64,000 bases of DNA. Origin: Azolla caroliniana (taxonomy: Eukaryota; Plantae; Polypodiophyta). Where the stretch lies: contig JBHGNT010000013.1 of assembly GCA_043228905.1 (NCBI GenBank), forward strand, positions 19,096,001 through 19,160,000. Direction: 5' to 3'. Position 1 is the stretch's first letter; every line of letters begins with the position of its first letter. Shown here piece after piece: positions 36,664 through 64,000 of the stretch. The notes beneath the pieces are model-generated. The model saw only the letters and a program-made list of their open reading frames with translations. It made no database searches and was not told the DNA's origin. The translations under genes were made by a program, and so were the position numbers.

Positions 36664-36748
36664 TGTTGTAGACGAGGTCGTCTATGCGGAAGATCAAGAA
36701 GCATTCGATTGCTGTTGAGTACCTGCGTATAACAGAATCATAGATCGT

Positions 36749-36787
<39 letters not shown>

Positions 36788-41927: not shown

Positions 41928-41972
<45 letters not shown>

Positions 41973-42143
41973 CACAAAAGACTTTCTTATTCAACAAAGC
42001 AATAATACAACACCCAACCTTACAAAAAGGTTACAAGGTCACTATATATAGTGACCGACTTAGGGCAACTACCCTTTATGCTAATTACACAAATGGCCTA
42101 AAGGGATAGTGTGAATACGTCCATTATACACTTGTATTCGACA
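36664..42143 (-). mobile_element. Intact young Ty1/copia (Tnt1/Tork-like) with 5-bp TSD GTGTG
   Basis: LTRs 36664-36958 and 41841-42143 differ by 2 substitutions plus (GA)n length. PBS-Met 41826-41838; PPT 36959-36965; TSD 36659-36663 and 42144-42148. Confidence 0.98.
37152..41165 (-). CDS. Uninterrupted copia gag-pol polyprotein (1337 aa from the ATG at 41165)
   Basis: CCHC CNYCKKPGHIKADC, protease WLLDSGAS, integrase (HSDVCGP, RTDNGGE, NGIAE), RT IYVDDM, RNase H GYTDSD. Confidence 0.97.
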   Translation of the reverse strand: MASTSGSSEMSLRKFDGSNFNFWKEQMQDYLIVKGQIDPIENEEPPEGYKPIEWQKLDRIVRATIRMHLSESVYFTVQSCTTAFELWKTLSDTYEKKVAATKMFLIRRLYNLRMKESDSVQAHLNEYESISSQISSQGTAIEDELRAMILMSSLPSSWETFVTTVCNASTTAVKYSEVTSAILTEAARRKSFAKDSTDDAYVVQGSTDRSNIRGRDSSRPPNNQRRRNQSRDNRICNYCKKPGHIKADCRALKNKNNKKSGRHEEINYVSFSADVLPDDPNILSIENPVGSEVLLTTEESSTWLLDSGASFHVTPHRSQFRQYTIRHSDSVRVGNSQHCDIIGIGTVELNLAGGSTLVLHNVRHVPELSRPLISVGQLDEDGIRAGFSSGGWTLHRGNLLLARGPKIHSLYPLHVTLREGNLFLVDIPVSSLWHRRLGHLSKAGITHLSRAGYIPKLSFSDHQFCEHCQYGKQAAASHPTSAPRETRPLDLVHSDVCGPMLHQSLGGASYFVSFIDDSTRKVWAYPIRTKDRVFSIFTDWLAMVENQTDRKLKCLRTDNGGEFKSEEFVKFCRQRGIRREFTAPHSPEQNGIAERMNRTIQERIVSMLQHSGLSDGFWAEALLTAVHIINMSPSRPLGLQIPQELWIGSKPNYDKLRIFGCEAYALIPKDDRRKLAPRSRKCIFLGYGSNGEMGYRLWDPERRQIVRSSDVVFNESAMNPSVEKPIEVRRVTFSDVPTLQEGPALNTRSASRVAEPYTTDSDNSDSAQQNNPLLDHPTSIPDATNPIIPRRSERLSQPPERYSPGIFFTDAGEPTSYEEASTSVDSATWHLAMESEMHSIRANKTWDLVELPRNRRALPCKWVYRLKETSDSTTPKYKARLVAKGFRQEYGVDFDEIFSPVVKMTTLRFLLGVVAADNLELIQLDVKTAFLHGDLEEEIYMEQPKGFVAPGQEHLVCRLRKSLYGLKQAPRQWYKKFDDFIQSIGFSKSDEDHCLFTNTAQDGSPIFLIIYVDDMLISGRHAGELADLIRQLRLKFAMKDLGPARHILGMKISRHRDKRHLFLSQNDYIGRVLERFNMQSAKSASTPLPMNLRLSQRDCPTSGPEGEDMKSVPYAPAVGSLMYLMVATRPDISHAVGVVSRFMHNPGRSHWNAVKHVFKYLAGTKDHGILFGPNRTSGVVGYTDSDFAGCIDSRKSTTGYCFKFGNGAISWKSKLQECTATSTTEAEYVAASDAAKEALWLGRLAHTFRQVDHDSAPVVYSDSQGAVALSKNPVHHNASKHIDVQYHFVRDCVISGKIGLEKISTTDNVADGMTKCLSADRFRSLRHQMGVTTNQSG

Positions 42144-43860: not shown

Positions 43861-43996
43861 TTCTCGATTAGGATTTTCCACATAAACATTCAGTGTCATC
43901 TTTGTTGTCTGTGTAAAGTTGCATTGCTTATTTCTGCGTATTTCCTCCATTGTGAGTGTAAACGTAAGTGTTTGCGGAAGCGTAAAACAGAGAACA

Positions 43997-44043
<47 letters not shown>

Positions 44044-47000
44044 CAGAGAGAGCAGAACACAATTTCAAAATTATATTAAGACTCTGTATACACACTGTGC
44101 TAAGTAGCACTATTTATACAAGTCCTCTTGGGACTGACAGAAGTACCATGTACTTCAATGCTCACACGAGCATCTAACACTTACTACGAGACTATAGCTA
44201 CCTAGTAGTCTATCCTATACTAGGCTTCCGATTGGACTTCCGGTTACGGATTGCACCCGGCCTCCACTGCTTGCCGGTTCGGTTGCTCACCGTCATACCG
44301 ATCCATTTCGCCCGATCCGTCTCGCTTACCGGCTCCGGCTTATTCAGCCGATCCGGCTCCGGTTGAGCTTGCCGCTCAACACTCCCCCTCAAGCTCAACC
44401 TGAGGTGGGGTCGTAGTGTCGACCTCTGTGGCAGTCGGTTCTTCCAACCGACTTCTCCTGGCGTCACTCTGCCTTGCTCGCGCTCCTCGTCCGGTCCGGT
44501 CCGGTTTGTCGCGACCCCTTTGGTTCTGCGCGCCTCGACCCTCTCGGTCGGCATGTCTGCTCAATAGGCCCATCTCAGCACTCACGTTGTTGTGACTCCG
44601 GCGCTTGCCAATCCGTTGGTTCTCCCACGATGGCATCGACTTCCGCTGTGTCTGTGTCCCCTTGGCCTTCAGTCGATCCGACTCATCTAGATCCATCTGT
44701 TGATCCGAGTCAGCTATCTCCGACTCGTTCCAGCTCTTGTCCGAATCGGTACACTCCGATTCGACTTCCGGCTTTAGGCCTCTCACCACATCGGACCACT
44801 TCCGAGTCTTGGCCTTCTCCATGCTTCCCTCGGCTTCTTCAGCCGGTGAACCGAAATCGAATTCTTCATTCGACTCTGTATCATGGTCAGTACCGTCGTG
44901 ATGACCTCTGCACAGCATGCACTTCTCTTCCTGAGTGCACAACTCTTCTTCACAGCCGCTTGCTCTGACCTGTTCGGATGTGTCGACTTCCTTCGTCGAC
45001 TCGGCTTCCTTCATCTTCTTGTCTCCTCTTCTTCCGGCTCTCCTCTTACCGACGAGTTCAACAGGTTTTTGGCCTTTGCCCGTTCCGATAGAGACTTGGC
45101 CCTTGCTTCTCCCCCTCAAGTGCGGCACGTCGAGATGCTGAATACCAAGCATGTCGGTAAAGTGCTGCAACTTGTCCGATCCGAGCGGCTTGGTGAAGAT
45201 GTCGGCAACTTGCCGATCCGTATGAACATACCGTAGGTCAACTTCTCGCTCAGGACCCGCTCACGCACGAAGTGGTAGTGCACCTCGATGTGCTGTGTGC
45301 GAGCATGGAACACAGGGTTCCTGGCGAGCTGCAGGCTGCTCATGTTATCGCAGTAAATCAGGATCGGGGTCGGTACCTCGATCCGCAAGTCTCGCAGCAG
45401 TCGCCGAAGCCAGATGGCTTCACAAGTGGCAACGGTAGCGGCTCGGTACTCAGCCTCAGTGCTTGACAAAGCCACTATGGGCTGCTTCTTGCTGCTCCAC
45501 GCAACGGCCGCGCTACCCATGGAGAACATGTATCCGGAAGTGGAGCGACGATCAGACGCATCGCCGGCCCAAAGAGCATCTGTGTAACCGACAAGCTCTT
45601 CGGGTAGACCTCGCCGGTATAGCAGTCCCCGGTCCTTAGTGCCGCTGACATACCGTAATATTCATTGCGCGCACTGAAGGTGCTCCATGGTCGACTTCTG
45701 CATGAACTGACTTACCATCCTGACCGGATAGCTGATGTCGGGTCGGGTGATGGTTAAGTAGATTAGGCTTCCGACAACCTGTCGGAACCGTTTCTCATTG
45801 CAGGCCGGTCCGGAGTTGGGACGGAGCTTCTGGTTCCGGTCCAGGGGTGTGGAGACAGGTCGGCAATCCGTCATGCCGAACTTATACAGCATATTTAACA
45901 CGTAATGTCGTTGTGAGAGCAATATGCCGTCGGGGGTCCGGATCACTTCGATCCCAAGAAAATAATGAAGGTCCCCCAGGTCCTTCATTTCGAATGTGTC
46001 CGACAACTGGGACTTGACGCGGTTGATTTTGGGAAGACCCGGTCCGGTGATGACTAAATCATCCACATACAAGAGTATACATACTGGACCGTCAGAGCTT
46101 TGCCGGATGAACAACGAAGAGTTCGACTTAGAGACAACAAACCCCAGCTTACGCAACCGATGCGTGATCTTCGCGTTCCAAGATCGGGGGGCTTGATTCA
46201 AGCCGTAAAGCGACTTCTTCAGTCGGCATACCGCCGACTTGTTCATCTCCGATTGAAATCCGGGGGGCTGAGTCATAAAGACTTCTTCTTCAAGCTCTCC
46301 TTGAAGGAAGGCGTTCTTCACATCCATCTAGTGAAAATGCCACCCCCTTGCCGCAGCAACCGCCAGTACCACACGAACCGTCGTCATCTTCGCTACAGGA
46401 GCAAAGGTCTCGTCGTAGTCGATTCCGTGGGTTTGCGCGTATCCCTTCGCCACTAACCGGGCTTTGTACCGGTTAACAGAACCGTCGGCGTTGTACTTGA
46501 CCTTGTACACCCACTTGCATCCGATCGGTTTACAGTGACAAGGAGGATCAACTAGGTCCAAAGTTTCGTTGGCATCGAGTGCCCGCATTTCTTCGTCCAT
46601 AGCGGCACGCCAATTTGCGTCCTTTGCCGCTTCTGAGTAGCTCTCCGGCTCACGCACTTCTGTCACCTTAGTCCTGTACGCATAATGATGCGCCATGTAT
46701 TCATTGTACCCGTACCGCATGACGGGATCCTTCTGGCGGGTTGATTGGCGCAACGCACCATCACTTGATTTGAGTCCCTTCTTGGCCAGTTCGGTCTTCG
46801 TTGCTGAAGATCCGCCTTTTTCTTTTCCGGAGTCGGATACGCACCGATCCGACTCATCGTTGCCGGTTTCGAATTCCGGCATCTTCCTCTTCCCCTTCTC
46901 TTTGCGCGTGAACCGTTTCCTCGGTTCCTTGCGTGGGGAGAGCACGGCAGAGTCTCCACCACTTGCCGTCTCTTCATCTGACTGGTCCAACTGACTCAGT

Positions 47001-49544
47001 CGCTCTTCGGTCCACTCAACCGTAACGATTCCGGACCTCTTGAGTCCAGGCTTCATCATCCTCTGTCAGGGCTGATTCAAGCTCACTGGCCTGATCTTCC
47101 GACATTGGGTCGGGATCGGAAGTCGGAGTCGGGACGGAGTACCAGGATGCCGATTCGTCGAACTCGACATCCCGGCTAATTCGGACTTCCTTCGTCCGGG
47201 GGTTATAGCACTTATACCCCTTTTGCTCTTGAGCATAGCCGACTAGGATGCATTTTTCCGATTTTGCATCCAACTTTCTCCGCTTCTGATCCGGCACATG
47301 CACATACGCTATGCTACCGAATATCCGAAGGTGTCTTAAGTTCGTCTTGCACCCGAAATACAACTCATGAGTTGACACCTTGTCACCAATGCGGTTTTGT
47401 ATGTAGACGGCGTCCGGACCGCCTTCACCCAGTAGAACCGGGGCATGCTCTTCTCCTCCAACATTGCCCTTGCCGCTTCGACGAGTGTCCGGTTCTTCCT
47501 TTCGGCCACACCATTTTGCTCCGGTGTGTATCTGCAGCTGAACTCTCGCCGAATTCCCTTCTGCTGCAGATAACTAGTGAATTGGCCTGAAAAATATTCC
47601 TTTCCGCCATCCGACCGAAGGCATTTGATCTTCCTCTCCGATTCCCGTTCCACCATCTTCTGGAGGCTCCGGAAACAGTCGAAGACTTCGCTCTTCCGCT
47701 CAATGAGGTAGATCCAAGTATGTCGAGTATAGTCGTCGATGAAGGAGACGAAGTATCGGCTCCCGCCAAGGCTTACACTTTGTGCCGGTCCCCACACATC
47801 CGAATTGATGAGATCGAGCTTGTTACGGCTCCGGTTCCGTTTGGTGGGGAATGGAAGCCGGTGTTGCTTCCCAAGTTGGCAGGCTTCACAAATTTCGGCT
47901 CTCCGGCCGCTGAACTTCGGCAAACCGGAAACGACTTGTTTCGTTTGCAGGTCTTGAAGCCTCTGGTAGTTGACGTGGCCTATCCGCTTGTGCCACAGGT
48001 CGATGTCCGACTCGACCTGCTGTCGTTTCGCGAACAGAGCGGTGCCAAAGTCATTGGTGTTGAGGATAAACATCCTCCCGTCTCTGCGCCCTTGCGCAAT
48101 GACTTCGCCCTCATCCTCAATGAAGCACCCGAGGTGCGTAAACCGCACCTGCATCCCCTGGTCGACAATCTTACCGACGGACACCAGGTTCTTCGTGATT
48201 GTCGGAACATGTAATACGTTCATTAGCTTCCCTTTCTGTCCGACGTGGCTTAGAGGGACCTCTCCGACGTGCACGATTGGGTGAGGAGTGTTGTCTCCGG
48301 TTTCAACTACTCCTGATTGATCCGGTTTCTCCAGAAAAGAGAACCACTCTTTGTGGCTCGTCATGTGGTTCGACGCGCCGGAATCAACATACCACACTTC
48401 CTCCGTTTTGGAAGTGGTCTTCTTCATTGAGTTTGCCTTGTGATTCATCACCAAGGCTGGCCCCTTACCGGCCTTTCCGGTTCTGGATCCTCCTGATCCG
48501 TTTGCGTAGTGCGAGTTTTGCCGGCCATCCTTACCGGTCTTGCCGGATCCAGATTTGTCCGAATCGGCACGCTTTCTCCAGCACTCGCTTTCCATGTGGC
48601 CTTTTTTGCCACAGTACTAGCATTCCGTAGCGGATCTGTCTTGCCGGCCTCCGGCACCGCCTTGACTCCCCCTGCTTGTGGAAGTCCCGGAACTGCTGTC
48701 GGCACGTTCATAGTGCCTCCGTTCCTGCTCTTGCCGGTCGCCTCCATTGCGTGCCGACCCACCTCTTCCACTACGCCCACGGAACCAATCCGTTCCCGTG
48801 TACAACATTCGGCTGTTCGGGGATGCACTGGTAGATGCACCGGCGTGGTTCTCCTCTACAAGGAGCATCGACTGTAAGTCGAAGAATGAGGGGGTATTCT
48901 CCCTTGTACACACCGCAGTCCGGAACGCTCCGAACTTGGACGCCAGGCCTCCGAGATATACCTGCACCATCTCGTCTTCCTCTACGGTAACATTGATAGA
49001 GGCAAGCGAGTCGCATATCTCCTTTATCCGGCCCGTGTAGTCTGCCACGGACATGTCCTTCTGTCGAACATTGCTCAACTCCTGTCTGAGTTGCAGCTTC
49101 CGGGCAGTGGTGCTTGCGGCGAAAACCTTTTTCAGGTTCCCCCAAGCATCCTTCGGTGTCTTGGCGTCACGGATGTGGCTGAGTAGCTGATCGCTGACAT
49201 TGGACGCGAAGCAGTACATCACCCTGCTTGCCACCTGTTCCCATACCGGGAAGTCCTTGTGTGCCGAGTCGGGTGCCGCATCATTCGCTCCTTCGACATA
49301 ACTCCAGTACCCGTGTCCAAGCAGGTACTGGTGCATCTTGTAAGACCAGGATGCGTAGTTGCTCCTGTTGAGCTTCTTCACCGGGAGCGACGTAGCCATG
49401 CCTCTATCCATGTCTTCTACTGTGTCTGTTTTCGACCTGTTAGGGTTTTCTTCTCAAGAGTAAATGTCTGCAGCAGAGGTTCTCAACCCTCGCGCTCTGA
49501 TACCATGTAAACATAAGTGTTTGCGGAAGCGTAAAACAGAGAAT

Positions 49545-49590
<46 letters not shown>

Positions 49591-51556
49591 TAGAGAGAGC
49601 AGAACACAATTTCAAAATTATATCAAGACTCTGTATACACACTGTGCTAAGTAGCACTATTTATACAAGTCCTCTTGGGACTGACAGAAGTACCATGTAC
49701 TTCAATGCTCACACGAGCATCTAACACTTACTACAAGACTATAGCTACTTAGTAGTCTATCCTATACTAGGCTTCCAATTGGACTTCCGGTTACGGATTG
49801 CACCCGGCCTCCACTGCTTGGTGGTTCGGTTGCTCACCGTCATACCGATCCGTTTCGCCCGATCCGTCTCGCTTACCGGCTCCGGCTTATTCAGCCGATC
49901 CGGCTCCGGTTGAGCTTGCCGCTCAACAGTGAGTTTGAGACTCGGTTGTGGCTGAGCGCACTTCTTCACAAACTGGTATCAGAGCATGGAAGATCCATTC
50001 GGCAACATGTTCAAGGTCACCGGCTCCAACTACCTAGTGTGGAAGTCGAAGATGATGGACATGTTGGTGGTGAAAGATGTCGGGCTGCCGGTATAGTTTA
50101 GAGACAAAAGACCAGATAAAATTGATGTTGCGAACTGGGAGGTGATGCACATGAAGACGACGGCATACATTCGATGCATCATCGACGTGAGCCTGTACAA
50201 CAACTTCAACGAAGAAAGTAAGACCCATGTGCTTTGGGAGAAAATCGGCACCATGTTGGAGAGCAAGAACGCCGAAATTTGGGATTTGGTATTCCGGAAG
50301 TTAGTGAGACTCTGATACCAAGACAGATCCAGCATGGCAGAACACATGAATGCATACTAGGGACTGATAAACCAAACAACCTTGTTGGAAGTACCTCTAG
50401 CCGACGAGGTACTCAAGTTGCTGTTGCTCGGTCCCCTCCCAGATAGTTGGGAGACGCTAGTTGTCACTTTGGGCAACGCCAGGCCGGAAGGAAAACAGTT
50501 ATCCCTAGCAAGGGTAAAATCAAGCTTGCTGGATGAAGAAGCTCGCCTGAAGGACCGGGAGTCCAAAACCGAACCGAAGGCTTTGGTTATGACAAACGCC
50601 ATAATTGGGGAAGAGGCCGGAATCGGAGTCCCCAGAACCGGGACAAATCAGGGATGAGGTCGAAGTCAAGGGGGAGGCCCAGTTGCTTTTATTGTAGAAA
50701 GTTGGGGCACTTCCAGAAGAATTGCCGACACTTCTGGATTCCGGAAGGAGAAAGGAACCGACAATGCCGATTCAAAGAAGGGTCTGGACCCGAGAAATTC
50801 GGATCGGAAAGGAATGTCGACAATCGCGATAAGTGAGGAAGAATTGTTGCTGATCACCGAGGAGAGTGAGCTACATCTTGTCAGCGACGAGATGACATGT
50901 GTGGTCGACTCCGAAGCATCATTCCATCTGACCCCCGACCAAAAGTGGTTCACATCCTACATAGCTGGACATCATGATTGTGTCTGGATGGGGAATTGTA
51001 ATGGCTTGGTTCTAAGGAATCTTTGAAAGTAAAGTTAGCGTGAGGGATGAAAAGAATGAATGTTTGTGTTCAGGTGTTGGAGCGGTGTTGTGTGTATTTT
51101 TTTTGTTGTGCATGGCAGATTGTCGGCATAGGATACGTGTGGTTGTCGATGTCAACCGGGTGCAAGTTGTTGCTGAAAGATGTCTGACACATTTCGGAGG
51201 TTCGGTTGAACATGATATCAGCCGGTCAGCTAGATGATGAAGGCTACACGAGCAACATCCGGAACGGAGTCATGAAGTTCAGCAAAGGAAGCTTGATTGT
51301 GGCCCGAGCCCGGAAGATCACCACCCTGTACCTGATGCATGCTCAGATATGCCGGGAAGAAGTGAACGTGGCATCCAACAATGTAGGTGAGTTGTGGCCC
51401 AAAAGGTTGTGCCACATGAGCCAGAAGGGGATGCGAAGACTTGCCGAAGACAACCTCATTCCGTAGGTGAAAGACGTGCAGCTTGAGAAGTGCACCGACT
51501 ATTTGGCCGGAAAGCAGAACCGAACCTCCTTCCAAACTTGACCACCATTGAGACGG
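43861..51556 (+). mobile_element. Second Tnt1/Tork-like copia fragment (partial LTR 43861-43956 + 49929-49970, PBS 49974-49985, decayed gag-protease-integrase start)
   Basis: MEDPFGNMFKVTGSNYLVWKSKMMDML is homologous to the gag of the 33174 element; CFYCRKLGHFQKNC; interrupted at 51557 by a gypsy LTR. Confidence 0.85.
43957..49928 (-). mobile_element. Full-length decayed Ty1/copia (family A, copy 2) with 5-bp TSD GTGAG
   Basis: LTRs 43957-44381 and 49506-49928 (about 10 substitutions counted by eye); PBS 49494-49505; PPT 44382-44393; TSD 43952-43956 and 49929-49933; gag-pol in fragments 49411-44376. Confidence 0.97.
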
Positions 51557-51624
51557 TGCCGCGGTGTTACGCTTGTGCGTAAGGAATAAGGCGGGATCAC
51601 GGGGATCCTGAACCAAGGAGTGTA

Positions 51625-51667
<43 letters not shown>

Positions 51668-54600
51668 TTGCAGGCAACCCTCACCGGATGAACAAATCGT
51701 TTATGCGTACACAGATCAGTCAAATACACGCCCACACAGTGGGGAAAACGCAAACAAGAAGACACAAGGAGTCTCAATTACAACGACCGTTTGGATTACA
51801 AAATTTCTCGGTTACAACCAGCTAGCTAGGAATAGACCTGGAAACCCTGCAGAGACTGATTAGAAGGTAGGTAGGTAGATAGAGGAGAGAGAGCTTGGTT
51901 CCCAGTCTGATAACACTTCGTCCTTCCCAAAAAAAAATATATCTCTTGACTTCTCCCTCCCCCTCCTTTTATAGGTCGTCAAAGGGGGGAGGGGACCGTT
52001 ATACCTTGATACACTACTTTTATTCCCTATCCCTTCGGTCAAGGATATACTTCGATTCCCAAGACCTTTCAACGCGTGCTTACCTAGTATGTTCACAATG
52101 GTTGATTGTATCCTACTTATGTACAAGTCACGCCCTTTATTCCTCAATTTCTCCTAGGGATGGTTTTCTCCACGACATCCACCCCCACCAAACCGCACGT
52201 CCACCGATACGTGCCAGATTGTCCATCTGCCGGAGAAGGCCAACCCGTGATCATTCTTCATCCTCCGAGTCACCGTCCGCCCTGGTCCAGCCGTTACCGT
52301 CATTCATGCTTGCTAGGTCGGCTGTTTCTTGAACACCTTTATCCGCTTACCAGCCACCGGTACCGCTATCCGCTCTCCGTCAAGCTCAGCAAGATGATAC
52401 GTGCCGTTGTCGTTCGCGCTCGTCACGGTGTAGGGCCCGAACCATCTCTTCGCAAACTTACGTGCTGCCTTGTGTTGATTGTCAAGGCTGCTGTCATAGA
52501 CTAGCACCCAGTCGCCTTCTTCGATCTTCTTTGGTCGCAGTCGATGTGTTCGGTCGAACCAGTCTTTGTTCATTTCCCTTGCCGCACGCAGCTTCGCCTT
52601 TGCCCGTTCCACGTCCGCCGGTCTTCACTCGAGTTGTCGAATCCACGATTGGCCCATGCCCGCGCTCTACCTTTCCGTTTGCCTCCGGATTGTACGCCGT
52701 GGTGAGAGAGAGCTTGACTCCTAACCGATCGAACAACTCCTTAGCTTCTTGCGCGTCCAGCTCTCCTCGGCCCGCCATGATCTTCCCTACACACCCGTAC
52801 CGGCATACTACTTCTTCAATCAGGAACCGGCAGACTGCCGCAATCATCTTGTTTTGTAGTGCGCGACCCTCCACCTGGTTCCTCAAATCCTCCCGTGCTA
52901 GTACCAGGCATTTGCCCTACTCCCATCAGCATTGTTACTAAGTCCACCATCCACTTGAAATGGACGGTTGGCGGGTAGGTTGGGTGTAGCTCATCCTGAT
53001 GCCGGATTGAGGAGTGCATCTGGCAGTTTTCACATGTTGTCACGAATTGGTGCACATCCCGATACAGCCCCGACCACCAATACTTCTCCTTCAGCTTCTC
53101 GAAGGTGGCCCAAGTGCCGCGGTGTCCGGAACAAGGACTCTTGTGGTACGCCATTAACAACTTGTCTTGCTCGTCCTTTCCCGCCACTACGCGGAGCGGA
53201 ACGCCGCCTCGCTTCTTTGGGATCTTCCATATACTTTCGTCCCTTAGGAAGAATCAGTACGCTTTCTTTCGGATCCGGTTAGCCTCCTCTCTGGTCCATG
53301 CTACGTCTGGCGTCATTGTCCTCAGGAACCTTCCAATCTGGAACCACTCCCCATCGTACTTGCTCTCGCTGAACTCGTTAAGCGCCAGAGTGTTGCCTGC
53401 CCTTGTTGCTATGCGAGACGACTCGAAGAAGTCTACGCCGACTTCTTCGTCCTCTGAAACCATGCCGTTCTCGTCGTCGAGCCGTGCTCTAGAAAGCATA
53501 TCGCCCATGGTGTTGTCCTTTCCGGAGATGTGTCGTATCTCCGAATCTAGGGACTTAATGTACGCGACCTACATGAGCATCGCTAGGTCCGGAGTCACGC
53601 ATCCAGAAACCATACCGAGGATCAACAGGCAGTCCATCTCGATGATTACTTCTGTCCCAATCAAGTAGTCCCTATTGGTCTTGACCACAGAAACGATACC
53701 CCACAACTCGCGATTAACTTGGGCGTATCTTCGATGTCGCTCACTGAGAACCTTCATCCCGAACTGGATCGGGAATCGCATGCTGCTCTCGTCCTCCTGA
53801 TTGATCACCCATCCTATCCCGGTCGGGCTCGTATCTACGGTTACGTAGATTGGGACCTCCTTGCCGTAAACCGCTTTCCGGAGAGTCGGTGCTGCAACAA
53901 GCGCTTCCATCAGTCTCCGGATCGACTCCGTATGCTCCTCACAAGCGCTTTCTTCAGTAGCCCGTAGAGCGGTTCTGCTATGTGCGCGTAATGCGGGACC
54001 CAGATGTGGTAGAATGCACACGCCCCTAGGAACCTCCGCACCTCTGTTACTAACTTCCATTCCTCCTTCATCGCGGAAATGGCTTCGACCTTTGCCGGAG
54101 ATGGTTTCCAGCCATAAGGCCCGCACAAGTGACCGACCACTAAGATTTCTGATTGACCAAAAGCCGATTTTTCTCTGGAGAAGGTGAGCCTCGCCCTTTC
54201 AAGCCTCTGTAGCACCTTCTCACAATCGTCGATGTGGTCTGCCATGAACCTCCGACATCCGTCCGGCCCAACCGTTTCATCCTTCTCCTCCATCGGACAC
54301 CCTTTTATCGGGATGTCGTCTAGGAACAACATGGTGATGTTCGGGATGCAATCCCTCAACAACCTTGTTCATTGCATTCACCATGTGTGCCACCGAGTTG
54401 GTTCCTCCTTGCGGCAAGGTACACATCCGCACTAAGCCGAAAGGAGTCTGCATCGTCGTAATGTCCTTGCTCTCCATGGCTAGTTGGAACTGGTCGTACC
54501 CTGAGTATAGATCACCGACTGAATAGATTGACCTCCTGGCAAAGGCTTCCGCGAACTCGTCAATGGTTGGTCCTATCCCTGCGTTCCAAATGGTCACCTT

Positions 54601-56992
54601 GTTGACCGGTTGCAGATCCTGAATGAAGTGCAGAGCGCCGTTCTTCTTCGGCATGGTAAACCACCGGTTCGAATATGGGGCACTCGATGGCTCAAGGATG
54701 CCCATCTCCACCTTCTGTTTCAACAGCTCCATCAGCTTCAAGATGTGAGCTCTGGGTACTGGAATTGGTTTGAGATTCCACGGCACATGCGGTACTGTGA
54801 AGATCGCCATTGGTTCCACGATCGTCGGGTCCACGCACCCGATCTCTTCCGGCGAGAATACAAAGGCCTTCTCGTGCCTCCCGAGCATTTCCCGAAACCG
54901 TTCCTCTGCCGACAGTAGGAAACCACCCCCACCGACCTTGAGCTCCTGTAACGTCATGTCAGTGAATCAATGTCCTATGCCGGCCGGATCTCGTAGACTT
55001 GGGTCCGATGCGACCCCTTTTATCCTTTCCCTGCTGCCCTTCGGCAAGGGTGCCACGACTAGCCTCACCTTCCGGTCCACAGTCTTGTACTTGGTATCCA
55101 CATGGGCCGTCCGATCAGACCCAACCCCTTTCCCGAAGTTAGTGATTACTTTGTACATCTCCAAGGAATTAACCGGGATCATCCGTTCCTCACTGAGGCC
55201 TTCTTTGAACACCTTCCGTAACTCCCCCAAGGTGTTGTCAAAAGAGACCGCCTCCACGACGCCGCTAACTTCTTCACCAGGGGCGAGGACTCCGCATATC
55301 CTGAGTCGTTCCTTTGCTCGCTTCTTTTTCCGATCATTGACGTTGGCTAAAGTACAACCTCCGTTCTCGGAGAACCAAAACTTCCTACGTATGGTACATG
55401 TGTGGGGTTCTTCCGGTGTGTCCGGACTACAACGGCCCCATGCCTTGATAGCCCTCTCTAAAAATCCCCTCGGTTATCGCCGCCAAGGGTCTCGTGGTTC
55501 CTCTCATGGTTCGGCCTTACTGTTAGGAATTGGACGGAGTGTCGTCCATCTTGGCTTCTTACACGCGCGTACGCTAACCCATTATCAAGCACCTTTGTTT
55601 CCATGCGTGCCACCGTAATGTACGGTTCGCCGAGTATCACTGGGTGCGAGGACGTTTCCTGCACAAAGAAATGTTGATCTACCTCGACATCCCCAATCTT
55701 CACACGTATATTTGGGCACACCCCATGCAGCTCCTTTGTAGCGCGCGTTGCCGCTCGTATCTTCCAACCGTGCTTGGTGTTGATTGGCCACTTCCCCTTC
55801 TTGTAGAAGTCCATGGACATCAGGTTTATCTCCAAACCATGGTCTATCTCCAAACCATGTTCTATCTCCAAACCATGGTCTATCAATGCAACCACCCGCT
55901 CCTGCACGTCCCCGATCCGGACAGGGGTTTTCGTGGTGGCCCTGGCCCAGTGTAACTTTGAGTAGTCGCTATCCGCAAACTCGTCTTCTAGGGCCGCATC
56001 CTCCAGGTGCGCCGTCCACACCTCCACCAGCTTCTTCGGTTCCGCCTCTGTAGAGAACCGCTTGCGCTTCACTAAATCCACAATGGAGTCGTGGAATTCC
56101 TTCTTCGCGATCCCAAGCACTTCCCGCAAAGATAGCTCGACCTTGTTGTCGAGGATCCGTTCTTCTAGAACCTTTCGCAGGTCCGTCATTCTTTCAATTT
56201 CGGTGCTTAGCCGGTAACCGGCCGACCTAACTTTATCCGGCGTTCCCAGTTTGCCAGCTTCACTCTTCTTCGGCCTGAACCGGGTCTCGTACCGTTGCGA
56301 GGGTCCGGTCCCTCCAGCCTTCCCGGCGCGCTTGTCTTCTACCAGAATCTCATAATTCTGGCACGCGGCCTCCACGAAACCGATCTTTTCCTCAACCGGA
56401 TCGTCCCACCCGGTAATCTCCCGGACCCGCTGCTCAGCGCGGTGTTGCGAAAATACGACGAGGACACGTGAACGTGAAGGCAAGACCCCAGGGCCTTTGA
56501 CTAGAGGATATCAAATTCGTGTATTTATGTACTAAGAATTAACCGAAATTAGAAAGATTAACAAATTTCATTAACAAGTAGAAAGAAAGATTACAATTAA
56601 TCCCAAGATTGGGATTACAAAAAGTTTGCTAATGGAGATGGTTAGAGTAATAGATTAGAAGAAATGAGATATGGATTTAATTATTAGAATATTAGGGTTT
56701 TTAGATTCAATTCAAAAATTAGGGTTCTTGAGTTGTATGGCTTTGATTAGGAAATTAGGGTTTACTTGAGGGATATGGCTTCGATAAGATAGGGGAGCTA
56801 AGAAGGAAAAGAAAAACAATATAATATGGAGAGAGCGTATGGAGAGCCCGAGTGTAGGAAAAAAAAGGAATTTTATATGGAGTTTTTCCTTGATCATCTG
56901 CATGTCCACTTTTTGTTGCATGGCCTCTACTTTTGGTGAGGCTCCATTTTTTATTACTTTACTTTTTTATTGATGTACCCGAATCACCATTG

Positions 56993-58873
56993 TCATCTGA
57001 TCCACCATATTCTTCGTTCAGTCTTTGCATTTCCATGACCGATTGTTGTGGCTCTCTTTGCTCCTCTAGAGCATAATGCTTCACTCTTTATGCATGTGCC
57101 ACCTTCATCTCGGCCATCTCCTTGGTTATCTAAGTTTCTTTTATCATCCTTTCTTGTTCCATGCATGCCTTTCAAAGGCTTTATCGAAATACTATTGTTG
57201 AGTACTCTCAACGATTCATTATTTAGTGTCATGCTCTCCTCTAGGTGCTTAAGTGACCACACCACATGTTTCCCACTTTGTCCACTTTCTTGGTATACTC
57301 TTGTGTTGGAATTGACCATGACTTCTACGCTAGTATTATCCTTGTTAGATTTTGTGATCACATCTTTCGTATCCGCTTGGTCCACTTGGCCCACATCTTT
57401 GCTTTTTGAGGTTTGCTTGGTCTATTTGTCGCACACATTTGCTTTTGTCATTTTGCTTTGCTTTACTTCCTTGTTACACGCATTGGCTTTAACCCTTGCT
57501 TCCTCGCCGCCATTGTCCATCTCTTGGGTCTTACATTGGTTAATGCCCAAGTCTCTCAAACGAGTGTGGAGGAATTTTGTAATTTGGCGTTGCCTTTGTC
57601 GTGCTATTCTTTGCCATTTCCACCTTATGGTTGTTCGTATTAGCTTTGACCTTTCTTTCTTCGCCACCACCTTCTGTCTCTTGGGTCTTACATCGGTTAA
57701 TGCCCAAGTCTCAAGAACTTTTGTGGGGAAAGTCTCTTCATGATGGTTGTCTACCCTCTTTGGCTTGATGTCATTCTTCATGGCTATCTCTTTAGACTCA
57801 TGGGCCTCGTACCCATTAATCCTCTTGTTCGAGCAAGCCTCGATTATTCTCCCCTCTTCTTTGCATGTGTTAATTTTGGCCTTCACTTCCTCGCCGCCAC
57901 CTTCCGTCTCTTGGGTCTCACGTTGCCTTTTCGACACAACTGCCCAAGTCTCTAGAACAAGTGTGGAGAAAATCTCGACACGGCCATCCGCCATTGACTC
58001 GTCCATAGCCATCTCTGACTCGATGTCATTTTTCATGGCTATCTCCGCAATCAAATTGGCCTCACACTTTTTATCTCCCACGATCATGGAAGCTTTGCTC
58101 ATGCTAGCACCTTAATCACTTGATGTTTCAGACACAATATGTGTTCCGAAACATTTGTCTTCGCTTGAAGTTACATTCGCCACCCTCAATTCATTGGTTT
58201 CTTTCTTCGTCATTCTTTCTTTGCAAGATGAGAAGGTCTCTTGTTCCACACCTTCTTCTGTGGTTACATCGTGGTACCGAACCTGGGCCTTTGTATCAAC
58301 CATAACATTAATCCGCATTTGTTGGCAGGCCTCTTCTTCCTCGCTCATCATTTGCTTCAATTTTTTCTCCTTTTGAAGCTTCTCTTCAGCCTCAACTTGC
58401 GCCTTTAAGTTCTCGAATGCCTCTTCCATCAAGACTTCTGTGTCGATTATTGTTGAACATTCCCTCTTCGAGTTTTCTTCTTTAGGTGGTAGTTTGTAGT
58501 TGCATCCCGTCCTCCTTTCACCATCTGTCATGGGTTGTGTTGTTGCCGATGAGAATCTTGTCTTCCTCTTATCGTGAAGTCGACATACTCTTTCCACTTT
58601 AGTCCAATCTTCTGTGACTCGGCCATTTGCACCATCGTCATCTTCAAGTCGGATTTCAATGGCATTCCTTTCCTTCCGATCTATCGATTTCACAAACATT
58701 AGGACTTTTTCCACCCCCACCAATCTTTGATCCCGCTCCGAGAGTTGTGCAAAGCGACACTCGAACTCAATGAAAGCATGCATGGCACTTTGGTGGGTTT
58801 TTAATGATGATACCCATTGGTCGAACTCGTATAGTTTGCATCTCTTCGGCTCTTTGTATCTATATGCCTCCAT
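56993..58873 (-). pseudogene. Gag-derived ORF (about 627 codons, two in-frame stops) with a long charged repetitive tail
   Basis: ORFs 58112-58873, 57422-58102 and 56993-57394 share one frame. The N-terminal FIEFECRFAQLS..VLMFVKSID..TEDWTKVERVC aligns with host gag FREFEERFTRLS..VLLFVKSVD..TTDWAMV. Confidence 0.8.
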
Positions 58874-59679
58874 AAGATATCCTCCTGCCGCCTCGTTTCA
58901 CGTTGGGTTCACCAAAGATGTCGCAAAAATACGACGAGGATACATGAACTTGAGGCAGGACCCCGGGGCCTTCGACCGGAAGATATCAGATTCGTATGTT
59001 TATATTAAACAATTAATGGAAAATGAGAAAGATTAACAAATTTCATTAACAAGTAGAAAGAAAGATTACAATTAATCCCAAGATTGGGATTACAAAAGTT
59101 TTATCTTAAGGAGATTACTAGAATAATAGATTAGAGGAAATAAGAGATTATGATTCTTGAGTGATATGACTTTGATAAGGAATTTTGGATTTTGAGAGAT
59201 ATGGTTTCTGTAGGGAAATTTTAGGGTTTATGGCTTCTTTAAGGAAATTAGGGTTTTTGAGTGTTATGGCTTCCGTAGGGAATTTAGGGTTTATGAGAGT
59301 TATGGCTTCCCTAAGATAAGGGAGCTGAGAAGGAAAAGAAAATTAATGGAGAGAGAATGAGTGTAGGAAAAAAATGGAATTTTATATGGAGTTCTCCCTT
59401 GATCATTTGCATGTCCACTTTTTGTTGCATGGCCTCTACTTTTAGTTGCTTAGCTTTTTCTTTTAGTTGCATGGCTTTTTCTTTTAGTAGCATGCGACCG
59501 TCCACATGACCTTTACTTTTTGCATGCACTCCAACTTTAGTTGCTTGCGTCCACATGCCCTTTACTTTAGTTCTCTTCTCTTTACTTTAGTTTGTTGCAT
59601 GATCCAATCTTCCATCTGTCCGCGTCCAACCTCGTCCGGTCGCCAATTGCCACCGCCTCGCCAGCTCTGCCGCCGGATC

Positions 59680-59780
59680 CGGTTTGCTTACCGGCCGGTT
59701 TCCGGTTTTGCTTTCCGGTCGGTTTCCGGTTTTGCTTGCCGACCGGTTTCCGGTTTTGCTTGCCGGTCGGTTTCTAGTTT
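59680..59780. repeat. 24-bp tandem repeat (ccggtttccggttttgcttgccgg-like), about 4 copies, inside the LTR
   Basis: Visible tandem units. Confidence 0.85.
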
Positions 59781-61204
59781 TTGGGAACTTAGCCACCATC
59801 ATCCATCAAGTCAAAGTGGCCAAAGTGCTCTTAACACAAATGAAAAATGAGGCAGCTCAAGGTGCTTATATAGCCAGGGCCTTAAGTTTCCTATCTATGT
59901 GGGATAATTCTAATTTCCTATCTTCTCAAACTTCATTTTCACATAACTTGATAAGTATTTCTCCATTTTGTATATAGTAAAATACGTTTTGAAGCTCTTG
60001 AGTATATGCATCTTTCTATAGTAAGCTACTAATCTAATCTATAATAATTATTTCATTATTTTTTTACATAGTGTGTGAAGATTCACACGATAGCGGTCCG
60101 TCTCTTCTCTCCTTAACCGGAACCCGGAGAGGCCTTCTAGCACCGACGACCAGAACTCAGAGTTTGTCGCTTTCTTATCTTCACTTCCACTGAACCAGAT
60201 CCCAACCGATGCCGAACAGTGGATGGCCTCTAGATGGCGCGCCTCCGCCTCTTCCATTAGTCGCTTCATTCCGCCGTGTTCGAAGTTCGTTTCTACAGCC
60301 CTCCGAGTATCACTAGCGTGCACTCGCCCGTTCCACAGGTATACCACGTTACTTCTGAGCGCCTTGGAAAACTCCACGCAGTCTCGCCGGTTGTGTCCAA
60401 CCGCATCACACCATATACACCGTTGCCCACCCGACGGCCTCCGGTCGTGTGGCGGCCCTCCACTTTCTCTCTGGGCTTGCGCAATCTGCAAGTCGCGCAC
60501 CATTTGTGTCAGCTCCTCAAGAGCCGCTCTGCTGGATGGGCCCTTGACCACGCCGGTCGACGCTGGGCCATTTTCAAGCCAACCCCGGGTTTCCTCCTTC
60601 CGTGTTGACGAAGGCTCGTCGAACTTCCTTGCCGGGGTGGGTCCCGTCACCGACGACTTCTTGTCGCCCCACTCTCGTCGTTTGTCAAAGCGGCTGCAGA
60701 CCCCTTGACCATGGCCCAATCGGTCGTCAGCCCATTATTTGTCTCCATTAGGAGACCCACCTGGTCCCTATCTTGCGCGTCCACCGATTTGACGAATAAC
60801 AAGACACAGCTCGTGTCCAGCACGGTCTTGCCCAGCGTTGAGAGCCGCGTGAAGCGTTCCTCGAACTCCCGGAAGAGCGCCGATGCATTCCTCCCCTTTC
60901 CGGGGGTTTCCACCCACTCCATGAAGTCCCGTTTCGATAACCGAAGCGCGTCATCAATCCCGTACCTTTCGAGGAGCCATGCTTCGAGTTCTCCCCAGGT
61001 CCGACATCCGACCTGCACCTCGAGCATCTCTACGTGGATGCTCGGTGTCACCACCCAAGGGAACTTGGCCAGACGTCTATCCTCCGGAATGTCTCTCATC
61101 ACCATCTCGGCTCAGTAGGCCATCAAATAGCTCGTGGCATCCTTCCCATCGAATCGGCCTATCGTGCCGACAATTGCTTCAATAGCCCTGTCGAGGGCGC
61201 CCGT

Positions 61205-64000
61205 TGTCGAGGTATTCCTCGCGGATGCATGGAATGAGGTGGAACCTCGGGGGTCCTGTACCAAAGAGCAAGAGAGGAAGGGGAAGAAACCCTCTACGTG
61301 CGAGCGTAGATCCACAGGGACACGGCCCTTCGACGCAAAGACGCAAGTGGGACAGCGACACAGAAAGACACGAATGTATGTATGTATTAACAAAGACAAA
61401 CAACAAGAACACGAAGACAACAAAACACGAAGTCGGTTACAACCGAACAGGCCGGCGAACAGATGCCGATACCTGCTCGTAAACGCACAGAGAGGAAGGA
61501 GTAGGTTGGAGGTGTTGCCGGAAGCACTCGGGCATTCCTCAGAGCAACGCGAGCCTCCCGAAACCTGCACAGAAGGAAGCTATGGCGTTTGCAAACCAGA
61601 GAGAGAGAGAGAAGCCTTCGCACGCAAACCGACAGCACTTCGTCCTCGACTCTCCGCGATCCCCTCGCCCCTCCTCGTCTCCCTCCTTTTATAGGCAAGG
61701 AAGGAGCCGTTTCCCCTTTACTTCCTACCTACCGAATCTACCTAGGATCTCCTATGTACAACATAAGGCGCACGTGCATGAAGAGTCGGTTCCTACGCTC
61801 CGGTGCACCGATTCCGCTTGTGGACGGTTTTCTTCACGACATCCGCCCCCACCTAACCGCGCATCCACCGGCATGCGCCAAATTGTGTTGGGACGGAGAA
61901 AACCGGTCCAGCCTTCATTCTCCGCCCGTCGGTTCTTCCTCGGTTTCGGATCGCTCGTCGTCGCGGTCCAAGTCAACCGGATCCGGCTCGTCGTCGTGAC
62001 GCTTCTAGAACGCTTTGATCCGCTTCCCAGCTACCGGTATCGCCATTCTCGTACCGTCGAGTTCCGCCAGATGGTTCGTCCCATTGTCGTTGGCGCTTTG
62101 TACCACGTAAGGCCCGAACCACCTTCTTGCGAACTTCCGTGTCGCTCGGTGCTGGTTATCAAGGCTGTTGTCGTAGACTAGCACCTAGTTGCCTTCCTCG
62201 ATCTTCTTCGGTCGGAGCCGGTGCGTTCGGTCGAACCGGGCTTTGTTCCTCATCCTTGCTTCCCGAAGCTTTTCCGCAGCCTGCTCCACGTCCTCCGGTC
62301 TTCGCTTGAGCTGTCGTATACGCGCCGCCAGCAGTTCCTCCCGGCTCATCTCGTCTCTCCAGTCCACGGTTGCCCACGAGGAGATCGTACGTTCCATCGG
62401 CATGACCGGCTTCTGCCCAATCATGAGTTCTGCCGGCATGAACCCGGTTACCGAACTGTGCGTAGTTCGGTCCGCCCACAACGCGTAAGGCAGCAGCCGC
62501 GGCCAGTTCCCGACTTGACCTCCGCATGCCCGAACTAATGCCTTGACGATCGGTCTGTGTCCGCGCTCCACCTTTCCATTCGCCTCCGAATTCTACGCAG
62601 TGTTAAGCGAGAGCTTGACTCCTAGTCGGTCGAACAGCTCCTCGGCCTCTTCGGCGTCCAACTCCCCACGATCAGCCACGATCTTCCCGACGCACCCGTA
62701 CTGGCATATCACGTCCTTGATCAGGAACCGACACATGACCGCGGTCGATTTGTTCTGAAGGGATCGGCCTTCTACCTGGTTGGTCAGATCTTCCCGAGCC
62801 AGGACCAGATACCGCATCTCTCCTACTCCCATTGGCATCGTCACCAGATCTACCATCCATTTGAAGTGGATGGTCGGAGGGTACGTAGGGTGAAGCTCGT
62901 CCCGATGTCGGACTATGGAGTGCATCTGATAGCTCTCGCAAGTTGTCACAAACCGATGCACGTCCCGGTACAGTCCCGGCCACCAGTACTTCCCCTTTAT
63001 CTTCTCGAACGTGGCCCACGTTCCACGGTGTCCAGCCCAAGGGCTGTCGTGGTAGGCCGTCAGCAGCTCCTCCTGTTCTTCGTTCATCGCCACCACCCGG
63101 AGCGGGACGTCGTTCCTCTTCTTCGGGTGCTTCCATAAGTATCCGTCCCGGAGAAAGAATCGGTATGCTTTCTTCCAGATCCGGTTGGCCTCGTCCTTCG
63201 TCCATGACGCATCCGGCATCATTGTCCTCAAAAATCCACCGATCTGTAGCCACTCGCCGTCGTACTTGCTCTCGTCGAAGCCGTTAAGTGCCGGAGTGCT
63301 CGCCCCGTCCGTCGTCACGTACGCCGCCTCGAAGAAGTCCACGCCGACTTCTTCGTCCTCCGAAACCATGCCGCCCTCGTCATCAAACCTCGCCCTCGAA
63401 AGCATGTCGGCCATGGCGTTGTCTTTTCCGGGAAATGTGTCGTATTTCCGGGTCCAGGGACTTGATGTACGCTATCCACCTGAGCATCGCCAGGTCCGAT
63501 GTCGCGCATCCGGAAACCATGCCGAGAATCGGCAGGCAATCCGTCTCGATAACCACTTCTGTCCCGATCAGGTAGTCTTTGTCGGCCTTTACTGCCGAAA
63601 CGATACCCCAGAGTTCGCGTTTAACCTGGGCGTACCCTCGATGTCGTTCACTGAGGACCTTCGCGCCGAATCGGATCGGGAACCGAATGCCGTCCCCGTC
63701 TTCTTGGTTGACGACCCATCCGATCCCGGTCGGACTCGTATCCACCGTTATGTATACCGGGGTACCCTTCTCGTAGACAGCCTTCCGGAGCGCCGGTGCT
63801 GCCGCAAGAGCTTCCTTCAGCCTCCGTGTGCTCATCTCGCCACTCGAATTTTCGCCCTTTCTTCAGCAACCCGTATAGCGGCTCCGCAACGTGGGCGTAA
63901 TGCGGGATCCATATGTGGTAGAATGCGCATGCCCCCAGGAACCTCCGAACTTCCGTAACCAAGCTACAGTCGGTCTTCATCGCGGAAATGGCTTCTACCT
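61205..64000 (-). mobile_element. Ty3/gypsy element copy 2 (same lineage), 3' LTR 61205-61841, integrase and RNase H; runs off the window
   Basis: LTR TGTCG...CGACA is homologous at its ends to 51557-52177; pol pieces are collinear with 52180-54100; inserted in the gag of copy 1. Confidence 0.93.

What the first reader, a model, noticed from the sequence alone, without database searches (positions are those of the whole stretch)
56443..60092. Pol-less, gag-only LTR element with a tRNA-Trp primer, inserted in its probable autonomous helper
Seen: a 3.65-kb LTR-bounded insert with a 4-bp TSD and one long reading frame. Its first about 100 aa resemble part of the gag of the gypsy it sits in, followed by about 500 aa of charged, internally repeated sequence (VLETWA.. 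and GGEE.. repeats). It has no protease, RT, RNase H or integrase. Its LTR ends resemble the TGTCG..CGACA ends of the host family. Known: the PBS matches the 3' end of plant tRNA-Trp (..TTCACGTCGGGTTCACCA) with one mismatch, and gag-only non-autonomous elements (TR-GAG type) exist in angiosperms. Inference: a satellite family that borrows Pol from this gypsy lineage and encodes its own truncated Gag with a novel tail, possibly to hijack or interfere with helper particles.
Basis: partly seen in the sequence, partly recalled or inferred. Interest (0 to 1): 0.8.

Follow-up and report, generated by a model that had tools for sequence, protein, structure and literature searches.

The report
Capsid-swapping, pol-less plant retrotransposon family
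This is a broken copy of a many-copy plant jumping-gene family that has no copying enzymes of its own and likely borrows them from complete relatives; it encodes only a capsid (in this branch just its second half) joined to a long, predicted-disordered tail whose reading frame stays open while its amino acids drift almost freely, and the same tail is also found on capsids of a second, distant lineage.

Summary
The insert is real: 56443-60092, minus strand, 4-bp TSD, tRNA-Trp-type PBS, no pol. This copy is damaged. Its frame has four stops, and its 3' end lacks the PPT and about 650 nt of LTR.

Relatives show a true family: LTR-PBS-one ORF of about 600-720 aa-PPT-LTR, with the ORF ending 67-179 nt before the 3' LTR (12 of 13 ORF ends). 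TSD and PBS fit the Phygy gypsy lineage, so it works like a TR-GAG.

Three features go beyond that:
1. This subfamily keeps only the capsid C-terminal domain, which is conserved (dN/dS 0.2-0.5).
2. A 380-530 aa tail replaces the zinc knuckle and protease. It stays in frame but evolves near neutrally.
3. The same tail is joined to capsids of a second clade, up to 80% identical to an autonomous Gag-protease.

The element it sits in shares end signals but only 31-36% capsid identity, so it is a possible helper, not a shown one. Interference with helper particles is untested. Verdict: new variant of a known kind.

The parts
56439..56442 (.). Left copy of the 4-bp target-site duplication (GCGG; fits NCGN)
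   Evidence: Phygy TSD is 4 bp NCGN
60093..60096 (.). Right copy of the target-site duplication
58919..60092 (-). Complete 5' LTR, 1174 bp, TATCGTG...GCGACA; TATA-like word at 59865-59873; 24-bp repeats at 59683-59778
58897..58914 (-). Primer-binding site of tRNA-Trp type (tRNA identity recalled), one mismatch in this copy; exact at 15 sites in 14 of 28 related loci
56954..58873 (-). Single gag-type frame of 639 codons with four in-frame stops in this copy
   Evidence: relatives P0002 and P0003 are open over the same span
58564..58873 (-). Capsid C-terminal domain only; the ~100-residue N-terminal helix and N-lobe of full-length relatives are absent
58710..58723 (-). Internal PPT-like word inside the capsid codons R-L-V-G; these four codons are identical in all 8 lineages compared
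56957..58563 (-). Tail: linker, predicted coiled coil, then a predicted-disordered acidic repeat region, a basic region and a Trp-rich end; no zinc knuckle, no protease
56443..56937 (-). Remnant of the 3' LTR (distal 495 bp, mosaic). The PPT, its hairpin and the first ~650 nt of the LTR are missing at a junction near 56936
51565..61204 (-). Surrounding decayed gypsy element A (gag-PR-RT-RH-INT; 3' LTR 51565-52177; hairpin and PPT at 52178-52211)
61205..64000 (-). Second gypsy element B inserted in A's gag (3' LTR 61205-61841, flank CCGT, same hairpin and PPT)

Best explanation
This is a decayed copy of a multi-copy, pol-less Ty3/gypsy family with Phygy-type signals (LTR, tRNA-Trp-type PBS, one gag-derived ORF, hairpin plus PPT, LTR) that likely borrows protease, reverse transcriptase and integrase from autonomous relatives, and whose long tail likely serves mainly as a translated spacer rather than as a folded effector. 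Shown: the architecture, the absence of pol, the shared 3' hairpin/PPT and LTR ends, NCGN target sites, conservation of the capsid C-terminal domain, an open but near-neutral tail, and the same tail on two deep capsid clades. Inferred: family RNA is packaged together with helper Gag-Pol and copied and integrated by helper enzymes. Template switching in such mixed particles would join the tail/3' module to helper capsids, each time just before the zinc knuckle. Keeping the frame open to within 67-179 nt of the 3' LTR would keep the 3' UTR short and protect a ~2-kb internal region from nonsense-mediated decay (long-3'-UTR decay in plants is recalled knowledge, untested here). The window's branch has lost the capsid N-terminal half, so it likely depends on other elements for the shell as well.
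For: Architecture: 12 of 13 ORF ends examined reach an LTR start within 67-179 nt and the 13th contig ends at the PPT; PBS-to-LTR span 1986-2306 bp in 11 units. No PR, RT, RH or INT hit in 28 loci at E<=0.01. Of 23 proteins of 455-2000 aa with this capsid type, 17 carry the tail, 6 are Gag-protease with a zinc knuckle, none has both. Openness: 15 of 16 loci with depth >=12 are stop-free across the match, 0 of 7 with depth <9 (five matches under 170 codons left out). Three of this copy's four stops and its 3-nt insertion are minority or absent states in contigs from four runs. Helper signals: the 6-bp pre-PPT stem pairs in 60 of 60 cells across 10 sequences including hosts A and B, 2 of 6 pairs with compensatory change, 3 of 500 shuffles as high; 4 of 5 LTR flanks in loci and 3 of 3 junctions in the window fit NCGN; Phygy = 4 bp NCGN, tRNA-Trp 81%. 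Selection (kappa 4, 7 pairs): capsid CTD pN/pS 0.17-0.53, tail 0.85-1.0; window vs L002 5 nonsynonymous/11 synonymous against 113/41 (p 0.001); neutral simulation leaves the tail stop-free in 0-3 of 2000 runs. Net indels that are multiples of 3: tail 70 of 93, LTR 28 of 159. Capsid swap: clades I and II each 100/99 support; P0168 and P0170 are 78-80% identical to autonomous P0169 over the first 230-245 aa, then switch to the tail at the knuckle; P0176 has a different junction; P0170's tail groups with clade-I tails at 100/99; contig L020 (depth 92) holds PBS, clade-II capsid and tail.
Against: No intact copy with both LTRs and a matched TSD was recovered; L007 has both LTRs but unmatched flanks. 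The relatives are short-read metagenome contigs that likely collapse several copies, so single junctions are better supported than whole paths. The ORFs used for dN/dS and indels were chosen as open, the pairs are not independent, and the indel test is partly circular. The tail ratio depends on kappa: about 0.5-0.8 at kappa 1, and the estimate from fourfold sites is 2.9, so weak purifying selection on the tail remains possible. The Trp-rich end is kept in most lineages (ratio 0.63-0.87 in the four pairs between distant lineages, above 1 in the three close pairs). Shorter members exist (P0007, 475 aa), so length is not fixed. No autonomous element with a clade-I capsid was found, and no helper PBS was seen. 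The decay-avoidance step has no direct evidence.
Confidence: 0.62

Rival explanations
1. Same pol-less family, but the tail is a functional disordered protein region that replaces the nucleocapsid. Its basic half and Trp-rich end bind RNA or membranes and favour packaging of the family's own RNA; composition, not sequence, is under selection.
For: In all four junctions to a clade-II capsid the zinc knuckle is dropped. The acidic-then-basic layout recurs: in 9 of 10 proteins the last 40% has more K/R than D/E. The Trp-rich end shows synonymous variation. The tail is kept through capsid swaps.
Against: pN/pS near 1 over about 400 codons; the middle of the tail hardly aligns between subfamilies; L003 (depth 108) stops inside the Trp-rich motif and L010 ends early.
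Confidence: 0.22
2. The CTD-only branch encodes a dominant-negative capsid fragment, like Ty1 p22/p18 or Drt2, that enters helper particles and suppresses or diverts them.
For: The retained domain is exactly the CA-CTD (top matches Arc C-lobe Z 8.3, rmsd 3.0, 81 aligned; Drt2 Z 7.1, rmsd 2.9, 85 aligned). Two different N-terminal losses end at the same point. CTD pN/pS is 0.17-0.43 among the three NTD-less copies compared. Four NTD-less contigs keep 609-635 aa open frames.
Against: 9 of the 11 synonymous differences between the window copy and L002 lie in the second half of the domain, several shared with full-length lineages, and L013's CTD groups with full-length ones (97/96), so the constraint may have acted in full-length ancestors and arrived by recombination. 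An element that blocks assembly would hinder its own spread.
Confidence: 0.12
3. One-off deletion of pol from an ordinary gypsy element, or an assembly artefact.
For: This copy does carry a private 3' deletion and mismatched LTR ends.
Against: The pol-less layout with an intact PPT recurs in about 7 subfamilies. The tail has no similarity to 122 Pol or Gag-PR proteins (best E 0.23). Thousands of contigs from four runs lie along all 30 bins of the stretch.
Confidence: 0.04

Closest known systems
TR-GAG elements (Chaparro et al. 2015, PMC4350172; abstract and passages seen)
   Same: LTR, PBS, PPT, a single gag ORF, no PR/RT/RH/INT, several copies, presumed mobilisation in trans.
   Different: 4-bp NCGN TSD rather than 5 bp; the long-LTR branch is about 4.4 kb (over the 4-kb limit); no zinc knuckle (TR-GAG1 has one); a 380-530 aa unrelated tail; a branch with only the capsid CTD. 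The passages seen report TR-GAGs from angiosperms and a brown alga.
Barley RLG_WHAM and RLG_Sabrina_A (Wicker et al. 2017, PMC5738225; passages seen)
   Same: High-copy gypsy families with a potentially intact gag and no pol; DNA similarity to the presumed helper limited to LTR termini and the PBS.
   Different: Athila lineage in grasses; the passages seen mention no capsid exchange, tail or CTD-only form.
Phygy, non-chromovirus Ty3/gypsy (Neumann et al. 2019, PMC6317226; passages and supplement rows seen)
   Same: 4-bp NCGN TSD and tRNA-Trp PBS. The surrounding elements have no chromodomain hit, and the nearest named integrase relatives are liverwort polyproteins (57%).
   Different: Phygy was defined on autonomous 7.7-10 kb elements by pol phylogeny; this family has no pol.
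Ty1 p22/p18 and Drt2 restriction factors (PMC8458377 abstract and Introduction; PMC10951436 abstract)
   Same: A Gag fragment that begins at the capsid C-terminal domain; same fold.
   Different: Those are copia-type, made from an internal transcript or a domesticated host gene, and shown to restrict. Here the fragment is the only ORF of an LTR-bounded multi-copy unit, and restriction is untested.

Membership tests
TR-GAG | LTRs, PBS and PPT | tested here: met
   Family loci; this copy has lost the PPT and part of the 3' LTR
TR-GAG | Single ORF with capsid similarity | tested here: met
   No Pfam gag hit for the window pieces, but the model of a full-length relative matches dArc1 capsid at Z 11.0, rmsd 10.4, 143 aligned, and Atlas features give Retrotrans_gag at 0.94
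TR-GAG | No PR, RT, RNase H or integrase | tested here: met
TR-GAG | At least two copies | tested here: met
   28 loci, about 7 subfamilies
TR-GAG | Length up to 4 kb | tested here: inconclusive
   About 3.3 kb for 667-bp-LTR subfamilies, about 4.4 kb for the window's 1.2-kb-LTR branch (sums; no whole copy of that branch seen)
TR-GAG | 5-bp TSD as described in 2015 | tested here: not met
   4 bp. So: works like a TR-GAG, filed as a variant
Phygy | 4-bp NCGN TSD | tested here: met
Phygy | tRNA-Trp PBS | tested here: met
   Conserved 18-mer; its tRNA identity is recalled, not compared with a tRNA gene
Phygy | Placement by RT/RH/INT phylogeny with reference elements | not testable with these tools
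   The family has no pol, and no reference Phygy sequences were at hand for the neighbouring elements
TatI (also tRNA-Trp, 4-bp TSD) | Extra archaeal-type RNase H in the helper's Pol | tested here: inconclusive
   No such Pfam family is listed for the 116 relatives of element B's integrase region; not searched directly in A or B
CA-CTD restriction factors (p22, Drt2) | Protein begins at the capsid C-terminal domain | tested here: met
CA-CTD restriction factors (p22, Drt2) | Expressed, associates with particles, lowers transposition | not testable with these tools
   Needs RNA, proteomic and bench data

The most novel reading that the evidence does not exclude
A satellite retrotransposon built on a portable tail-plus-3'-end module that repeatedly captures capsids from helper lineages, always discarding the nucleocapsid, and whose most reduced branch spreads with only the capsid C-terminal domain, the fragment that acts as a restriction factor in yeast. 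That protein would co-assemble with helper Gag-Pol and divert particles to the satellite's RNA: a mobile, selfish counterpart of Ty1 p22.
Probability: 0.2. Interest if true: 0.75.

Novelty: new variant of a known kind. Interest (0 to 1): 0.52.

Why it matters
Why gag-only retrotransposons keep their gag is an open question in the TR-GAG papers seen (PMC4350172, PMC8704663). This family splits the question into testable parts: a constrained capsid domain, a tail selected for being readable rather than for its sequence, natural chimeras that join one tail to two capsid lineages, and a natural half-capsid branch. The chimeras also mark which autonomous lineage likely shares particles with the family, which is usually only guessed. 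If the half-capsid protein acts on helper particles, it would be a plant case of capsid-level conflict between transposons. Pfam-based TR-GAG screens would likely miss the family, since the window's capsid piece has no Pfam gag hit.

Tried and rejected
No whole genome is held for this window, so copies with two LTRs and a TSD could not be counted. No RNA holder listed. The PBS pattern found nothing in viral contigs. Laying contigs on element B's LTR end showed no PBS among the 24 loose ends listed (288 more not shown), so the helpers' PBS is untested. Sequence search of PDB with the family profile: 0 hits; Foldseek had no match at E<=0.001, best dArc1 at 0.047. The tail gave no usable Atlas feature hit and TM under 0.25; it was not folded alone, so no claim is made on its fold beyond low confidence in the full model. 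Rfam: 0 matches at E<=1 over 56300-60300. The bacterial promoter scan is not relevant to this organism. A capsid-CTD complex prediction was not obtained, so binding is open. Dating by LTR divergence was rejected because the ends are mosaic. The tandem LTR-ORF-LTR-ORF-LTR in L004 was not taken as real, because short-read assembly can join units through shared LTRs. An early idea that motifs inside host LTRs (51583-51612, about 61240-61265) were PBSs was dropped: they lie inside the LTRs. The idea that the tail derives from pol was rejected. Paper searches (listings only) showed no description of a pol-less Phygy family or a CTD-only gag element; the library lacks most subscription papers. One search (decay and gag) listed nothing relevant. 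Earlier scan notes held nothing on this family.
Full report
Observation. The insert spans 56443-60092 on the minus strand, with GCGG on both sides and no 5-bp match, and it interrupts the gag of a decayed gypsy element, here called A. A whole 5' LTR (58919-60092) is followed after 4 nt by an 18-nt primer site with one mismatch to the tRNA-Trp-type word (tRNA identity recalled). An ATG at 58873 opens a frame of 639 codons that carries four stops in this copy. The 3' end is a 495-bp LTR remnant, 74% like the distal part of the 5' LTR.

Is it a family? No genome was available. A protein search gave 16 relatives of 362-719 aa, two of them open over the whole span at 75-76% identity. A metagenome scan gave 28 loci. 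The primer site is exact at 15 sites in 14 loci. In 12 of 13 ORF ends examined an LTR start follows within 67-179 nt, behind a conserved hairpin and PPT; the 13th contig ends at the PPT. These fall into about 7 subfamilies. No protease, RT, RNase H or integrase query hits any locus. Among matches of 250 codons or more, 15 of 16 loci with depth 12 or more are stop-free and 0 of 7 with depth under 9; five short matches were left out. In contigs of four public runs, three of this copy's stops and its 3-nt insertion are minority or absent states; the fourth stop was not among the rows shown. L002 shows the intact ORF-PPT-LTR junction at the place where this copy jumps about 650 nt into the LTR. 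So pol-lessness belongs to the family, while the stops and the 3' deletion belong to this copy. Limits: the loci are short-read contigs that likely collapse copies, and none is a whole copy with a matched TSD.

Lineage and helper signals. Phygy elements have a 4-bp NCGN TSD and mostly a tRNA-Trp PBS (PMC6317226, passages and supplement rows). The insert's TSD, the flanks of A and of a second element B in the window, and 4 of 5 LTR flanks in the loci fit NCGN. A 6-bp stem, the PPT and the first LTR bases are shared by the family and by A and B; the stem pairs in 60 of 60 cells with two compensatory pairs. Beyond the ends the LTRs do not align. The nearest named relatives of B's integrase region are liverwort polyproteins (57%). 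The host plant was not identified; earlier scan notes call it fern-like, untested here.

The protein. A model of a full-length relative (P0008) has two confident helical lobes that match the dArc1 capsid (Z 11.0, rmsd 10.4, 143 aligned), a predicted coiled coil at 244-294, and pLDDT under 50 for most of the rest. The window's branch starts at the second lobe. Folded alone, that piece matches capsid C-terminal domains (Arc C-lobe Z 8.3, dArc2 C-lobe 8.0, Drt2 7.1, PEG10 7.0). The loss is shared by L002, L012, L013 and P0007; L001 has a different short leader that by eye resembles the start of clade-II capsids. None of 10 tails examined has a zinc knuckle, and a tail profile finds nothing in 122 Pol and Gag-protease proteins (best E 0.23).

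Selection. With kappa 4, seven pairs give pN/pS 0.17-0.53 in the capsid CTD and 0.85-1.0 in the tail. Window against L002 gives 5 nonsynonymous and 11 synonymous changes in the CTD, 113 and 41 in the tail (p 0.001). Neutral evolution over the same distances leaves the tail stop-free in 0-3 of 2000 runs. Net indels are multiples of three in 70 of 93 tail cases and 28 of 159 LTR cases. Caveats: open ORFs were chosen, pairs share history, kappa was estimated at 2.9, and at kappa 1 the tail ratio is about 0.5-0.8. The CTD signal within the NTD-less branch may be inherited by recombination: its synonymous changes cluster in the second half and L013 groups with full-length lineages.

Capsid exchange. 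A capsid-profile search of 455-2000 aa proteins gave 23 hits: 13 tail-bearing of clade I (the window's), 4 tail-bearing of clade II, and 6 Gag-protease proteins with a knuckle. The tree separates clade I (100/99; no autonomous member found), clade II (100/99; autonomous P0169 and P0174 with P0168, P0170, P0171, P0176) and element A's clade (93/88; no tail-bearing member). P0168 and P0170 are 78-80% identical to P0169 up to just before the knuckle and then switch to the tail; P0176 joins at another point. Their tails scatter among clade-I tails, P0170's with P0005/P0009 at 100/99. L020 shows PBS, clade-II capsid and tail in one contig of depth 92. I infer at least two joinings of the tail to helper-type capsids, most simply by template switching in shared particles. 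This makes clade II a better-supported partner than element A, whose capsid is 31-36% identical.

How it likely works. Shown: architecture, missing pol, shared end signals, a constrained capsid domain, an open near-neutral tail, mosaic capsids. Inferred: the RNA is packaged with helper Gag-Pol, primed by tRNA-Trp and the shared PPT, and integrated at NCGN sites by helper integrase. My preferred reading of the tail is a translated spacer that keeps the 3' UTR short and so avoids nonsense-mediated decay (recalled mechanism, untested). A composition-driven RNA-binding role is the main rival, and p22-like interference the boldest.

Comparison and novelty. It works like a TR-GAG (PMC4350172, abstract and passages) and like barley WHAM and Sabrina_A (PMC5738225, passages). 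TR-GAG transposition is reported in Arabidopsis (PMC8704663, passages), and gag-retaining families are common in sugar beet (PMC13570524, passages). It fails the 5-bp TSD description and partly the 4-kb limit, so I file it as a variant. CTD-only Gag fragments restrict Ty1 in yeast (PMC8458377, abstract and Introduction; PMC10951436, abstract). Passages of PMC12885004 and PMC6911290 place Phygy in a liverwort and a moss. Searches listed no paper on a pol-less Phygy family or a CTD-only gag element; only listings were seen, most subscription papers are missing, and the TR-GAG supplements were not read and could hold seed-free-plant cases. Verdict: real, a new variant of a known kind, interest 0.52.

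Noticed in passing
window 58710-58723; same place in L001-L016, L026: A copy of the PPT core lies inside the capsid codons R-L-V-G. These four codons are identical in all 8 lineages, against 2 of the other 12 conserved degenerate residues. Possible second, internal plus-strand primer site.
   Followed up: partly
window 56443-56937 against 58919-59446: The 3' LTR remnant is a mosaic: its first ~240 nt are closer to the element's own 5' LTR, its last ~260 nt to the L002 LTR, yet the TSD matches. Conversion after insertion or a chimeric cDNA; not resolved.
   Followed up: partly
L004 1-5560: Two different subfamily units in tandem sharing one LTR (LTR-ORF-LTR-ORF-LTR); real array or assembly path.
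   Followed up: no
window 61201-61841: A second Phygy-like element B is inserted in the 5' part of element A's gag, flank CCGT; contig loose ends stop at 61204.
   Followed up: partly
L005 657-922: Duplicated LTR end and primer site 175 nt apart, the first primer site degenerate.
   Followed up: no
window 36664-42143: Copia element with an unbroken 1361-aa polyprotein frame (37152-41237) and LTR matches of 97%.
   Followed up: no
window 43957-49928 and 122-5491: Two copies of another copia family, 84% alike; the right one has LTRs 97% identical.
   Followed up: no
window 22128-24536 (-), 9076-9564 (+), 25967-31161 (+): An 802-aa frame that reads as a MYC-type bHLH transcription factor, an exon of a likely PDZ-domain protein, and a broken LINE; names by eye, not tested.
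   Followed up: no
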